This document shows, piece by piece, positions 39,541 to 56,067 of a stretch of DNA of 64,000 nucleotides. The position numbers and the translations under genes were made by a program. Source of the DNA: the human T2T-CHM13v2.0 reference genome, Homo sapiens; the NCBI RefSeq assembly GCF_009914755.1, contig NC_060937.1; one strand, written 5' to 3'. The notes beneath the pieces were generated by a model. It did no database searches. It was given only the letters and a program-made list of their open reading frames with translations, and was not told the origin of the DNA. Each line of letters begins with the position of its first letter. The stretch's first letter is position 1.

Positions 39541-40290
39541 AAAAAGTACAGTTCCTCAACTGTTCTGACAGCAAAGTTTATCTCTCCTAAAATTCCAACT
39601 CCCTCAAAATGTCCTTCCTCTTGAATCTCCTCTTCTCTTACTCTCTACTCCAGCTCCAAAGCAAAGACACAGCTACTTTTGTGCTCACTACAGATTCTTT
39701 TTTAAAGCCACTTATTGACTTTATTCTATGTATCTATTGATCTGTTTGCATTCCCCTTTCAAATATTTGAGCTATTCTCTGGAGAGGACATGATTCATTC
39801 ATCAGGTTTTTTTTGTCACCTTTTTCCATCACATAGTTTAACTCATAGAAGGTTCTCAAGAAATGCTTGTTCTGTGACTAAATGAAGGACTGTGTACTAA
39901 CAATATGTGATTTGTTCTGAATATCGTGAAATAAAGATATAACCTGAATTAGTGTTATCAAGAGTAAATATTTCACAATTCCCTTTGATGTTACGGCTGG
40001 TGGTCCTGCTTCTTCTATATGCAGCAGAGGATAAATTCTAGACCACATGCACAAAAATACCATCCCTCAGTTTGCAGCTAGGGTACCATTTACATGATAT
40101 TACTGCTGTTTCACCATTTGGGCTATCTCCAGTTTCGATGAAATAAAATGTTCATATGAATTGGAAATAAAATAATAGATTAATATAACTAAAAATAATG
40201 TATGTTCATTCTAAATCACGAACATGTACTATTAATGCTTTTTTTTAACCAAAACCCACAAATTCTTTTACATTTTAAGACCATCATTAG

Positions 40291-40636
<346 letters not shown>

Positions 40637-40794
40637 CTATAAAACTATTAAAATGCTGGGCGGGGGAGTGAGGGGGTAGTTCAGGAAACTCTGATAGGAC
40701 TTTAGCCCTAAAGAACCTGAGAGTACAAAGGGAAGAATTAACAAAATCCATAAACAACAACAAAAGTAGGTGAAGTAGGAAATAATCTTCTCAC

Positions 40795-40905
40795 AGAAGG
40801 GCCTTCCCCGATGTGCACGTGTGTCTTCTGCTTGGCTTCACACAGCTGCCTCAGGTGTAAAATCACAAGTTCATTTTCTTCCTGGTCACTGACTGGCTTC
40901 ATTTT
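40795..40905 (-). CDS. TBC1D4: TBC1D4 exon 7 (111 nt; [21 protein letters not shown]...GEGPS)
   Basis: ORF 40738..40920; aacag|AAA acceptor, TCT|gtgaga donor. Confidence 0.96.
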
Positions 40906-41165
40906 CTGTTCAACAGACAAACCAAAAGAACACTATGGCAACACCACTTCCCTCCTTTTATTCTGTCGGGCAGACAAACGTAAATAAAGCTAAGAGTTTT
41001 AACTTCGCTCAGAAGCAAAAGTAAAATGGCATTCTATTCTATCCAGTAGTACTCTAGGTCATGCATCTTTAGCTCTAGGCAGCAGAATGAAAACAGGAAC
41101 GCATAAAAACAGGATCCAATTCTCATTCCTTATGTCTTATTTATGAGACCTACAAATAATGTTAC

Positions 41166-41257
41166 CTGAACTCTTTCAAAGATGTCAGCTTGCTCATTAT
41201 CTGTCAGTGATGAGAGATGCCTCTGTATCACCAGCTTGGCTCTTGGTGGGTAGAGAC
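41166..41257 (-). CDS. TBC1D4: TBC1D4 exon 6 (92 nt; [15 protein letters not shown]...FERVQ)
   Basis: ttttccttag|GT acceptor, CAG|gtaaca donor; phase 1 to 0 matches neighbours. Confidence 0.95.
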
Positions 41258-41501
41258 CTAAGGAAAATGATGAGGGAAGGTATTAAACAGAGTCTAGCAG
41301 CAGAGATCCAGGGGCAGAGAATGCATTACACTTCACCTCTTCCCAAGCAGGCTCTGAACTTAAATCTTCTCAAGGAGACGTGTTCCTGCCTAAAAGAAAC
41401 CTTGGAATACTACATTGAAATGATTAAAACTAGATGAAAAACCTCTCCACCAAAATCAACAGCCCCCAGTAGTGATCTTGGCATTACAATTACTAACAAC
41501 G

Positions 41502-41885
41502 GGCCGGGCGCAGTGGCTCGCGCCTGTAATCCCAACACTTTGGGAGGTGGAGAGGAGTTCTCAGAAACTTTTCCTCTAGTTCTCATTCAGTACTGCACAG
41601 TGGTTTAAAACAGGCCTGGTGACAGTGTGGCCACAGTATGGCAGGACTGTGTGCGTTCTGACAAGCATGAAGCAAATTCTAGTTCTTTTACACCCTGTCT
41701 CTACTAAAAATACAAAAATTAGCCAGCCATGGTGGCGGGGGCCTGTAATCCCAGCTACTCAGGAGGCGAGGCAGGAGACTCACTTGAACATGGGAGGCAG
41801 AGGTTGCAGTGAGCCAAGATCGAGCCACTGCACTCCAGCCTGGGCGACAAAGTGAGACTCCATCTCAAAACAACAACAACAAAAA
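41502..41885 (+). mobile_element. Alu whose left arm is interrupted by a 142-bp non-Alu insert
   Basis: Alu 41502-41548 and 41691-41885; TSD aattactaacaa(c/t)g on both sides. Confidence 0.92.
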
Positions 41886-43070
41886 TTACTAACAATGAAT
41901 TTCTAAGCGATACCGAGCACAACCAGATACCACTTTACACTAACAAACAGCCACAGTAGAAACTCACAGATGATTTAACATTAACCTAAGACCTCACATG
42001 GAAATAAAAGCTAAAGACTAGCCTTGGCCAAAAATTTTAAGTTTACAACTTGACATTTAAAGAAGAAAGAACAAGTAATAATATTAAAAGGCAAGACTAC
42101 GGCTTTGACAGAGATCTCTTCCCCGATGCAGCTCTTGTTCTGTGAGAATAAAGTTTTAAGGATAGCATTAGTATTTAGTGAACTTTCAATGTTATTATTT
42201 TATCAAGAAATCATTTACTTCTTTATATCATGATATTCACAAACCTATCCCATTCTTACACATAATTTATATTAAGTCCTTGGGAAAATCTTTTTTCATG
42301 AGAAGGTTGTTTTTAAATTTTTTTTTAAAAAAGAAAGTTTAATTCATATTTGCAGTAATTCAACAGACCATTCATTTTTAAAGAACAGATTTCTCTTTCT
42401 TCAAAAGAAGATTCAAAGAAAAAGAGCAGATTTTCATTACAGTTAGGTTCCACTTAGAGTATTGCTACTATATTTTGATTATGAAGAGAATATATATATA
42501 TATTCTGGATATATATAATATTTAATAAACCTTATAGGTAGGCTGGCATTTTAAAATCATTTGTTATTATAAGGCTGCCTTTGCTATCATTCTCAGGTTA
42601 TAACTAAATATATTACATGATGTTATGACATAATTTGAATGTTTTCCATGTATTCTTTGTATTTATTTACAAAGAATAAGACAAAGTAATTGGCCGAAAA
42701 TACTTATAATTTGTTCCGCTAAGTTGCATCACAGAATTTTAAAATAATGTATTAGTCTATAAGTACATTGTGCACTTTTCTCATTGTATTCATTTCTAAG
42801 AAAATATGAGGTGCCAGGCAACTGAAGTAAACTGATTTAATAGATTTGAGCTACTTTTTAAAATTAAATAACTATCAAGATCTCTACAGATAGTATACAG
42901 GAGGATCACCTGAAAATACACATTGTTTTAAAAGATCTAGAATTCACTTCACACTTGCCAGAAAGCACACAGTACTGCCATACTGCAGCCACACGGCCAC
43001 CAGGCCTGCTTTAAACCACTGTGCAGTACTGAATGAGAACTAGAGGAAAAGTTTCCAAAAACTCCACTCC
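41549..43070. repeat. Inverted repeat: 41549-41690 is the reverse complement of 42929-43070 (~88% identity)
   Basis: Manual ungapped alignment, 17 mismatches in 142 bp. Confidence 0.95.
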
Positions 43071-43174
43071 ACATTTCTTTGTGCAATGTACAGCAAAATT
43101 CGGTGCAAGTCTTGGTGATCACAGACAGAAAACTAAATTCATTTTGATGGTATGACACCACTCACTATCACAGT

Positions 43175-43818
<644 letters not shown>

Positions 43819-45234
43819 ACTATCACAATTTATTATTTGCTGGGAAAGTCTCCTTCAGAGGCTTAGACAACATATTATGATAATGATTCACATGATTGTT
43901 TTTGTTTTGTTTCCTGTTGTTTATTACTCAAGTGACTAACATGGAAGATAAAAGATTGAAAAGAGGAAAAGAAAAATAAAGAAGGTAGTTATTTGAAGTA
44001 TGTAACTAAATTCATAAACTAGGAAGTTTCTTTAGTCCTCTATGTTAGTCAAAGAATTGGAATTGGCTGGAGTTTATTTCTTTCAAACTATACATGCTCC
44101 CTCTTCCATGAATCTGATTGGACTTCCTTCCTCCCAGCAACTGGAATCACTGACTGGCGAATTACTGATATTGAAAGCATGTATATTATCCACTATGCAT
44201 GTTAATGTAGGAAACCAACATTAGGATAATCGGTCTATCTCGGTGATACTCAGCATCACTTTTCAGATTCACATTCTGAGGTTTGGTCCTTGGGAAACAG
44301 CGTTCCCCTTCGATGCCACCCCCTCAATTCACTTCAGTCCACAGAGATGGCTGACTGTTCCTCCTGGGATAAACAGTAAGAGTGAACACAAGGACAGACG
44401 ATGAAGGCTCACATACACATACTTATCTACTTTATTTTTATCTTATTTTTGTCATTAAAAATAGAACTCAATGCAGCTAAATGTATTGACAAGAATACTA
44501 CAATTCTGAATGAGTGAAATAAAATACTACTATCTGGTTTTTTAAAATATCTTCCTCACTAACAATACTTTTATTAATTTGTGTTTATCTAAATGTGATC
44601 CTTCTTCCAGCTTTGTACTTTGTACCTAAGCATAAAACAAACTTAGAATTAACAGTTATCTTACTTAAATGAAAGTAACTGTTTGGAAAACACACAGATA
44701 CCAGGAGGCTTCCAGGCCCTGAGGGTCCCTGCCTTTGGATACTCTCTTAGAGAAAAGGTATCCAGGTGCTTTGGAAGCCAATTAGGCAAGTCCAAATCCT
44801 GGCTCTGCCCCTTCTAAGCAAAGTGAATACAGCAGTTATTACCCCACTACGGGTCTCAGTGTCTCAGCTGCTTCATGTGTAAAAGAGATTCAGTTTTTTT
44901 CATATGGATGGAATGGGCTAATACATGTGAAACACAATAGTGCCTCGCACATGGAGAGGCCTACAGAGGATCTGCCTTACTGTTACTACCTTTGTTCTTA
45001 CTATTAATATCAGAGTACTGTGCTGTCTTACTGCTATCTTTACTCAACATAAAAAGGAGGAAGGAAAAAATCCTATCAGAGAGTGTGATCCAGGGACTTA
45101 GGAAAACAACCCTGAGTGACTCACAAGTCCTTCTTTTTACTCCCTTCAGATACATGCATGCCTTGAAGTGCATAAAGCTTAAGTTTCAGAGTCCCTTCGA
45201 GATTTTGGGAAGGGCCCTAACAATTCTGAATTCA

Positions 45235-55140: not shown

Positions 55141-56067
55141 TGCAATACAAAATTGATGGGAATATATCTTTTAATCAGCAATATGGAAAGCAACATCAGT
55201 TCTCTGCTTTCACAGCTCTACGAATCTCTCCTTCACAGCAATGAAGGGGGGACATAATGCCTTGAACTCCAATTACCTTTAGTTGAGAGTAGGAGAGGGG
55301 TAGTATTAAAGAGAATTGACTTTTAAATGCCAAAGAAGAAAATTAAGGTTAAAGTAAGACCACAAAGTATATGATATTTCAAAAATGAAGAAGGGGCTAA
55401 TAAAATAAAAGAAGAAAACCAAAATAGCTCTCTGTTCTGCTGATATAAGCATTATCTACTCTGCAATGTTATAGCAGTTAAGAAAATAAAAGATCAATGG
55501 CCTTCCTTATCTTCTCATATGAGCAATGAAAAAAGTAACAGCTTTTCTCCTATTATTAGTCTTTTCCTGCCTTTTAAAAAGCTCAAGTTTCCATGACTGG
55601 GTTTATTAAACCCACAAAAGTATGTAGGCATATATTTTACCATGACAATTTGTTTTTGCTTTTCTACTGCTGTGCTGCTTTGAAGGGGAGGAACATATTT
55701 CTAGACGCCTTCTTCTTTTCCCATAGATAGCCATATTGCAAGGCTTGGGCTCCTAAGAGACAAGTCTTCTGTTCGACAGATGTGTCCGCAGGAGCAGGCA
55801 GACAGCAATAACACTACTTACCAGAGATTCGCTGGCACACTGGAATACATAACAAATATACTGGCTAAGTCCAGGCTCTGGAGACTCCCGGCAGATAAAG
55901 CCAAAGTGATCCACATGCTTTATACCCTAGATGGAGGGGAAGAAGTGCAATAAAAATGTATGGGAATATATATTTTTTACTCAACAATATGGAAAGCAAC
56001 ATCAGTTCTTTGCTTTCACAGTTCTACGAATTTCTCCTTCACAGCAATGAAGGGGGGACATAATGCC
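55141..56067. repeat. Dispersed direct repeat: 55141-55261 matches 55946-56067 (~120 bp) on either side of exon 4
   Basis: caatatggaaagcaacatcagttct...cacagcaatgaaggggggacataatgcc occurs twice. Confidence 0.95.
55822..55926 (-). CDS. TBC1D4: TBC1D4 exon 4 (105 nt; [14 protein letters not shown]...CASESL, PTB domain)
   Basis: ctccatctag|GGT acceptor, CTG|gtaagt donor; PTB signature HFGFI...YVFQC. Confidence 0.96.

What the first reader, a model, noticed from the sequence alone, without database searches (positions are those of the whole stretch)
41549..43070. 142-bp inverted copy of neighbouring intron DNA written into an Alu
Seen: ~55 bp of the Alu left arm is replaced by a segment that is the reverse complement of 42929-43070, ~1.24 kb away (17 mismatches, no gaps, including a 44-bp perfect block). 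The Alu TSD is intact and there is GTGGAG-type junction homology. Four double mismatches are CA versus TG, i.e. ancestral CpGs that decayed on the same genomic strand in both copies. Inference: a templated insertion by template switching or microhomology-mediated repair, during or soon after Alu integration. It creates a unique-sequence (non-Alu) dsRNA stem starting ~290 nt upstream of the exon 6 acceptor, a potential ADAR/Dicer substrate or splicing modulator.
Basis: partly seen in the sequence, partly recalled or inferred. Interest (0 to 1): 0.7.

Follow-up and report, generated by a model that had tools for sequence, protein, structure and literature searches.

The report
Repair-copied intron patch inside an Alu
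A 142-base piece of a TBC1D4 intron is copied backwards into a nearby Alu repeat, most likely as the scar of a DNA-break repair of a kind already catalogued hundreds of times in human repeats; it is predicted to form a long RNA stem, but no function is shown.

Summary
41547-41690 is an ungapped inverted copy of 42929-43072 (144 bp, 17 mismatches, 1,238 nt apart), found twice in the genome search. It replaces 58 nt of an Alu whose 14-bp target-site duplication is intact. This fits a described class, repair-mediated duplications (Pace et al. 2009: 824 in human repeats, median 147 bp, peak about 1.2 kb); I did not find this locus in their table. The 204 kb of TBC1D4 examined hold four more local duplicates. 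One sits in another Alu and is far younger than it, so capture after Alu insertion happens here. Capture during Alu insertion remains the rival: the ages are indistinguishable and an 11-nt match to the deleted Alu part lies beside the donor. The predicted stem (139 of 144 paired) competes with, or nests inside, ordinary inverted-Alu stems. One oddity is unexplained: all 12 transitions give G-U pairs on the TBC1D4 strand and none gives A-C (about 0.1-1% under neutral models). Simple selection for pairing fits no better. Primate orthologues and editing data would decide. Verdict: ordinary class, low interest.

The parts
41488..41501 (+). Left target-site duplication of the host Alu (14 bp)
   Evidence: 1 mismatch to 41884-41897
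41502..41547 (+). Host Alu, consensus positions 1-46; the last G is shared with the donor (1-nt microhomology)
   Evidence: alignment to the local Alu consensus
41548..41689 (+). Inserted copy (142 nt), reverse complement of the donor; replaces Alu positions 47-104
41690..41883 (+). Host Alu from position 105 to its A-rich tail; 41690-41692 is the 3-nt right microhomology (AAA in consensus and donor, ACA today). AluS-type by recalled diagnostic bases, not from a call
41884..41897 (+). Right target-site duplication
42929..43072 (-). Donor segment, intron DNA with no other match in the genome search; 46% GC against 27-37% in its flanks
42926..42933 (.). TTTTAAAA palindrome at the donor breakpoint, an L1-endonuclease-type motif
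   Evidence: 4.3% of 7,039 non-Alu TTT sites read TTTTAA and 1.0% TTTTAAAA; motif TT/AAAA as given in PMC13174262
42903..42913 (+). 11-nt exact match to the deleted part of the Alu (C variant at position 65), so the pre-mRNA here could pair with Alu RNA
   Evidence: 6 such 11-mers, this one included, in 178,964 non-Alu bases; P about 0.008 within 50 bp of the donor
43174..43818 (-). Two antisense Alus in tandem that compete for the host Alu in RNA folding
40329..40635 (+). Sense Alu that takes up the antisense Alus in the larger fold and leaves the copy-donor stem free

Best explanation
A 142-bp inverted copy of intron DNA from 1.2 kb away replaces 58 nt of an Alu, most likely written there by repair of a DNA break after the Alu had inserted, and it is probably a neutral scar. 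Shown: the copy, its orientation, the 58-nt loss, the intact target-site duplication, and short junction homology measured against a local consensus. Inferred steps: (1) the Alu inserted by normal target-primed reverse transcription; (2) a break formed in its left arm and about 58 nt were lost; (3) one broken end paired with the nearby donor through 1-3 matching bases and copied about 142 nt; (4) the new strand let go and rejoined the other Alu end (synthesis-dependent strand annealing or microhomology-mediated joining); (5) both copies then drifted, the one-sided G-U pattern being a rare draw on top of a mild transcription-linked bias. A by-product is a predicted RNA stem in the TBC1D4 pre-mRNA.
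For: Size, distance, copy number and position in a repeat match repair-mediated duplications: 824 within 5 kb, median 147 bp, peak near 1,200 bp, found in all repeat classes roughly by abundance, most frequent 30-42 Myr ago (PMC2671141). Two matches in the genome search. Four more local duplicates of 77-226 bp at 0.7-2.9 kb in 204 kb of the same gene; the 3 of the 4 that I searched gave 2 genome matches each. One of the four sits inside another Alu with a 5-nt microhomology and differs from its donor at 2 of 226 sites while that Alu differs from the consensus at 14 of 115 non-CpG sites, so it arose long after its Alu. Total divergence and the 5 transversions are at the neutral level (expected 3.7-5.1).
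Against: The 58-nt deletion exceeds the 1-15 nt in the breakpoints that Pace et al. inspected and their 30-bp filter. The age cannot be told from that of the Alu (p 0.61). The 11-nt match and the TTTTAAAA motif beside the donor are not predicted by this model. The mismatch spectrum is unlikely under neutral drift: no A-C pair among 12 transitions has P 0.008 analytically (0.010 either direction) and 0-0.002 in simulation, and 0 of 195 comparable windows of inverted Alu pairs show it (windows not independent).
Confidence: 0.7

Rival explanations
1. Capture during Alu insertion: the L1 reverse transcriptase, copying the Alu RNA, jumped at position 105 onto the minus strand of the donor (nascent TBC1D4 pre-mRNA or exposed DNA), copied 142 nt, and jumped back to Alu position 46. 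An 11-nt duplex between Alu RNA and the intron next to the donor would hold the two templates together and explain why that part of the Alu was skipped.
For: One target-site duplication and tail enclose the whole chimera. Ages overlap. The insert has the sense of the TBC1D4 transcript, the orientation expected from template switching between RNAs (PMC13174262 passage; 50% by chance). 11-nt match 15 nt from the donor end, P about 0.008; duplex -31.5 kcal/mol, reached by 1.3% of 2,578 random non-Alu windows. Breakpoint on a TTTT/AAAA motif. 22 templated insertions during L1 integration were reported in tumours (bioRxiv 10.1101/2024.08.27.596794 passage).
Against: Those templates typically lie within 15 bp of the insertion site; this donor is about 1,030 bp from the right duplication. 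Two jumps are needed. The 11-nt match was noticed after the fact among several features, and it is exact only if the host had C at position 65 (5 of 14 local Alus with the host's right-arm variant). An A/T-rich breakpoint is partly forced by the AAA homology. A second Alu in the gene shows capture long after insertion.
Confidence: 0.22
2. Whatever its origin, the stem is functional and selection keeps it paired in the TBC1D4 pre-mRNA (splicing of the nearby exon, or an editing substrate).
For: 139 of 144 positions pair on the TBC1D4 strand, -246.9 kcal/mol against -209.6 on the other strand. All 12 transitions are G-U. The stem is in the lowest-energy fold of 40250-43900.
Against: Five transversion mismatches are at the full neutral rate. 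Simulated selection strong enough to remove A-C pairs removes transversions too: joint P at most 0.002 over 8 settings of 1,500 runs each. In the fold of 41200-43900 the stem is absent and costs 8.6 kcal/mol to force. Inverted Alus already give this intron longer duplexes (-274 to -488 kcal/mol). No Rfam family reaches its gathering score here; the 4 weak matches lie on the Alu, one running about 30 nt into the insert.
Confidence: 0.05
3. The one-sided G-U pattern records a strand-specific mutation process acting on both arms, for example A-to-I editing of the stem written back into DNA (ancestral TA rather than CG at the four doublets).
For: 12 of 12 transitions can be read as A-to-G on the TBC1D4 strand. 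Neither neutral drift nor selection reproduces the spectrum. Such a route is discussed as a hypothesis in PMC2927911 (section 12).
Against: The number of transitions is not in excess (12 seen, 13-16 simulated). The same 12 can be read as C-to-T on that strand. No singly changed TA site exists either (6 shared TA). Numbers are small and the pattern was found after the fact. The control on other inverted duplicates in other genes was not obtained; the two others in TBC1D4 have one transition each (1 G-U, 1 A-C).
Confidence: 0.03
4. The segment is a high-copy repeat inserted twice independently.
For: The donor is richer in GC than its flanks (46% against 27-37%), and the search tool skips very common words.
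Against: 2 matches only in two genome searches; the copy has no duplication or tail of its own.
Confidence: 0.01

Closest known systems
Repair-mediated duplications (Pace, Sen, Batzer, Feschotte 2009, PMC2671141; read: parts 1-5 of 8 of the text, passages of the methods, chr13 rows of supplementary file 3)
   Same: A single-copy segment of 50 bp or more interrupts a repeat; donor within 5 kb (here 1.24 kb, at their peak); length 142 against a median of 147; microhomology plus deletion; an inverted case is described (ACSBG2).
   Different: Deletion of 58 nt, beyond their 1-15 nt and their 30-bp filter. Not found among their 49 chr13 rows; 'TBC1D4' occurs 0 times in the 4 supplementary files. 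Their coordinates are hg18 and I could not convert them, so the match was by gene name, repeat type, size and distance.
Templated insertions made during L1 integration (bioRxiv 10.1101/2024.08.27.596794; passages read, supplements closed)
   Same: Non-element DNA under 250 bp copied into a new insertion.
   Different: Reported for L1 with templates typically within 15 bp of the site; here an Alu, an internal replacement, and a donor about 1 kb away.
Doublets, short paired duplications (Thomas et al. 2004; paper not held, seen only as cited in PMC2671141)
   Same: Short local duplications that share many attributes with repair-mediated duplications.
   Different: Those surveys looked at near-identical copies under 100 bp; this pair is 144 bp at 88%.
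Predicted human dsRNAs (dsRNAscan, PMC11838218; passages read, tables not opened)
   Same: Edited non-repetitive stems have a median of 144 bp and 87.5% pairing, like this one.
   Different: About 497,000 non-repetitive stems are predicted and 4,597 are edited, so a predicted stem alone says little; 'TBC1D4' does not occur in the main text.

Membership tests
Repair-mediated duplication | Insert of 50 bp or more interrupting one repeat copy | tested here: met
   142 nt between Alu positions 46 and 105 within one 14-bp duplication
Repair-mediated duplication | Only one other copy in the genome | tested here: met
   2 matches; the search can miss common words
Repair-mediated duplication | Donor on the same chromosome within 5 kb | tested here: met
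   1,238 nt
Repair-mediated duplication | No A/T tail of 5 or more bases added to the insert | tested here: met
   the insert ends in 4 T that the donor also has
Repair-mediated duplication | Microhomology, deletion or filler at the junctions | tested here: met
   3 nt right (from the consensus), 1 nt left, 58-nt deletion, no filler; the deletion is larger than the published range, so the authors' own 30-bp screen would have missed it
Repair-mediated duplication | Empty site (uninterrupted repeat) in an outgroup | not testable with these tools
   no relatives of this genome are held
Repair-mediated duplication | Neutral divergence of donor and copy (typical, not defining) | tested here: inconclusive
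   amount neutral, spectrum one-sided
Templated insertion during retrotransposition | Whole chimera inside one target-site duplication with a tail | tested here: met
   also true of later capture
Templated insertion during retrotransposition | Template typically within 15 bp of the insertion site | tested here: not met
   about 1,030 bp from the right duplication
Templated insertion during retrotransposition | Insert as old as the element | tested here: inconclusive
   3.3% against 4.2%, wide intervals
ADAR-edited intronic dsRNA | Long duplex on the transcribed strand | tested here: inconclusive
   predicted 139 pairs; present in 2 of 3 unconstrained folds
ADAR-edited intronic dsRNA | A-to-I sites on both arms in RNA | not testable with these tools
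   no RNA data; a paper search for TBC1D4 with RNA editing and ADAR listed 2 papers, neither on this by title or abstract start

The most novel reading that the evidence does not exclude
The L1 reverse transcriptase made an Alu-intron-Alu chimera by jumping onto the host gene's own nascent pre-mRNA and back, guided by an 11-nt RNA duplex, and the long stem that resulted has since left a one-strand (G-U only) mutation imprint in the DNA of both arms.
Probability: 0.04. Interest if true: 0.7.

Novelty: new member of a known kind. Interest (0 to 1): 0.2.

Why it matters
As a single locus it matters little: it is one more of hundreds of repair-made local duplications, and this gene alone has several. 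It does show how such repair can put non-Alu inverted repeats into introns. It would matter more if orthologues showed capture at the moment of Alu insertion from the host pre-mRNA, or if the G-U-only pattern held across many inverted duplicates inside genes. The second would make a link between RNA duplexes and germline mutation direction testable with natural two-copy reporters.

Tried and rejected
High-copy repeat: rejected. Inversion of the interval: rejected, both Alu halves and both duplications keep one orientation. Known RNA family in copy or donor: none at gathering score. Gene conversion tract behind the 46-bp block: not needed (P 0.07). Local strand bias as full explanation of 12 G-U to 0 A-C: too weak; in 33 Alus of the gene CpG decay is 252 coding to 240 template, A>G is 1.7 times T>C and C>T 1.15 times G>A; inverted Alu pairs give 54% G-U; the host Alu itself leans 8 to 3 (p 0.13). 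Simple selection for pairing: rejected. APOBEC or AID contexts: read by eye against recalled motifs, no clear fit. A wider control on inverted duplicates in other genes was not obtained, so the G-U pattern rests on one locus. Paper searches without a description of this locus: TBC1D4 + Alu + intron (9 papers, 7 listed, listing only), TBC1D4 + RNA editing + ADAR (2), inverted duplication + G-U + strand asymmetry terms (0 with 5 of 6 terms). PMC2912911 passages and the listings added nothing specific to the locus. Most subscription papers are not searched.

Full report
1. Observation. The repeat finder gives arms 41547-41690 and 42929-43072, 144 nt, 88% complementary, 1,238 nt apart. BLAST within the window gives 17 mismatches and no gaps. 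The longest perfect run is 46 bp. Searches of the whole genome with the donor, and with 606 bp around it, return only donor and copy; the tool warns that common words are skipped. The feature is real and far beyond chance.

2. Anatomy. I built a consensus from 33 full-length Alus (of 89 hits) in the window and 140 kb more of TBC1D4. The host Alu keeps positions 1-46 (41502-41547) and resumes at 105 (41690). So 58 nt are lost and 142 nt (41548-41689) are gained. The target-site duplication is 14 bp with one CG/TG difference. Both Alu halves keep one orientation, so nothing between copy and donor is inverted. Junction homology is short: one G at the left (4 of 6 if GCCGAG is set against GTGGAG) and AAA at the right, ACA in the window today. 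These rest on a consensus, not on the true ancestral Alu.

3. Age. Leaving out the four doublets, copy and donor differ at 9 of 136 sites, 3.3% per branch (95% CI 1.5-6.3). The host Alu differs from the consensus at 9 of 167 non-CpG sites; I dropped 2 as subfamily variants (one by recall, one shared by many local Alus), leaving 4.2% (1.7-8.6). Fisher p is 0.61. The copy is old, but same-time and somewhat-later cannot be told apart.

4. It is not alone. After masking Alus, a self-comparison of the 204 kb shows four more close duplicates at 91-99% identity: two inverted (169 bp at 2.9 kb; 77 bp at 0.7 kb) and two direct (about 226 bp at 1.5 kb; 123 bp at 0.8 kb). Three were searched genome-wide and gave two matches each. 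The fourth lies inside another Alu (L010:498-958), joined by a 5-nt microhomology. It differs from its donor at 2 of 226 sites while the left part of its Alu differs from the consensus at 14 of 115 non-CpG sites. Capture of nearby DNA into an old Alu therefore happens in this gene.

5. Known class. Pace et al. 2009 (PMC2671141; parts 1-5 of 8 and methods passages read) screened for repeats interrupted by single-copy DNA. They found 824 with the donor within 5 kb, median 147 bp, distance peak near 1,200 bp, with microhomology, deletion or filler, and ascribed them to synthesis-dependent strand annealing. This locus meets every feature I could test. The exception is a larger deletion, which their 30-bp filter would exclude. 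I did not find it in their 49 chr13 rows, judged by gene name, repeat, size and distance.

6. The rival, capture during insertion. The insert has the sense of the TBC1D4 transcript. Fifteen bases beyond the donor end, 42903-42913 matches 11 nt of the deleted Alu part, so the pre-mRNA there could pair with Alu RNA. Six such 11-mers occur in 178,964 non-Alu bases, this one included, giving P about 0.008 near the donor; the duplex energy is reached by 1.3% of 2,578 random windows. The donor breakpoint falls in TTTTAAAA (1.0% of 7,039 TTT sites; 4.3% for TTTTAA). These were noticed after the fact, and the match is exact only for the variant carried by 5 of 14 comparable Alus. Templated insertions during L1 integration are described, but typically within 15 bp of the site (passages; supplements closed). 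I give this rival 0.22.

7. RNA stem. On the TBC1D4 strand 139 of 144 positions pair (-246.9 kcal/mol; -209.6 on the other strand). In the lowest-energy fold the stem forms for 41200-43170, is replaced by Alu-Alu pairing for 41200-43900 (forcing it costs 8.6 kcal/mol), and forms again for 40250-43900, where the Alu at 40329 takes the antisense Alus. These are predictions on 2-3.7 kb of RNA and ignore co-transcriptional order. The intron already has stronger inverted-Alu duplexes. A genome-wide prediction lists about 497,000 non-repetitive stems, 4,597 of them edited (PMC11838218 passages). No Rfam family reaches its threshold.

8. The unexplained part. All 12 transitions give G-U pairs on the TBC1D4 strand and none gives A-C; 8 of them form four CA/TG doublets, and no site has a CpG intact in one copy and decayed in the other. 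Local bias is mild: 51% for CpG decay and about 57% otherwise. Counting 8 events, P is 0.008; simulations give 0-0.002 for no A-C and 0-0.003 for the doublet pattern at CpG rates 10-15 times background, up to 0.027 at 25 times. In inverted Alu pairs, 0 of 195 windows with 10-16 transitions lack A-C, and 6 of 307 windows with 4 or more doublets lack singles. Selection for pairing does not rescue it, because the 5 transversions are at the neutral rate (joint P at most 0.002). An editing imprint is discussed as a hypothesis in PMC2927911 (section 12), but transitions are not in excess here. With one locus, several features inspected and no outgroup, I read this as most likely a rare draw. The control in other genes is open.

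9. Verdict. A real, old, repair-made local duplication in an Alu: a new member of a known kind. Interest 0.2.

Noticed in passing
L010:498-958 (G000:C13:74658498-74658958) and L009:9160-9385: A second Alu in TBC1D4 carries a direct copy of about 226 bp from 1.5 kb away, 2 mismatches, 5-nt microhomology; much younger than its Alu, so it might be recent or polymorphic.
   Followed up: partly
L011:5657-5825 and L011:8568-8736: 169-bp inverted duplicate, 98% identical, 2.9 kb apart, 2 matches in the genome search; a nearly perfect non-Alu stem in the TBC1D4 pre-mRNA if it folds.
   Followed up: partly
L012:4386-4462 and L012:5112-5188: 77-bp inverted duplicate, 1 mismatch, 0.7 kb apart, 2 matches in the genome search.
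   Followed up: partly
window 55141-55261 and 55946-56067: 123-bp direct duplicate (91%) on both sides of exon 55822-55926; it copies intron DNA from just upstream of that exon's acceptor. All 6 transitions have C or G in the left copy.
   Followed up: partly
window 40329-40635 and 43174-43818: Inverted Alus enclose exons 41166-41257 and 40795-40905 (185-nt arms, 88%), an arrangement that can favour back-splicing or skipping (general knowledge, not tested).
   Followed up: no
window 43163-43834: Two antisense Alus in tandem lie inside one 17-bp direct repeat (43163-43179 and 43818-43834, 16 of 17), likely one Alu inserted in the tail of another.
   Followed up: no
L010:4455-4612: 79-bp tandem duplication, 96% identical.
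   Followed up: no
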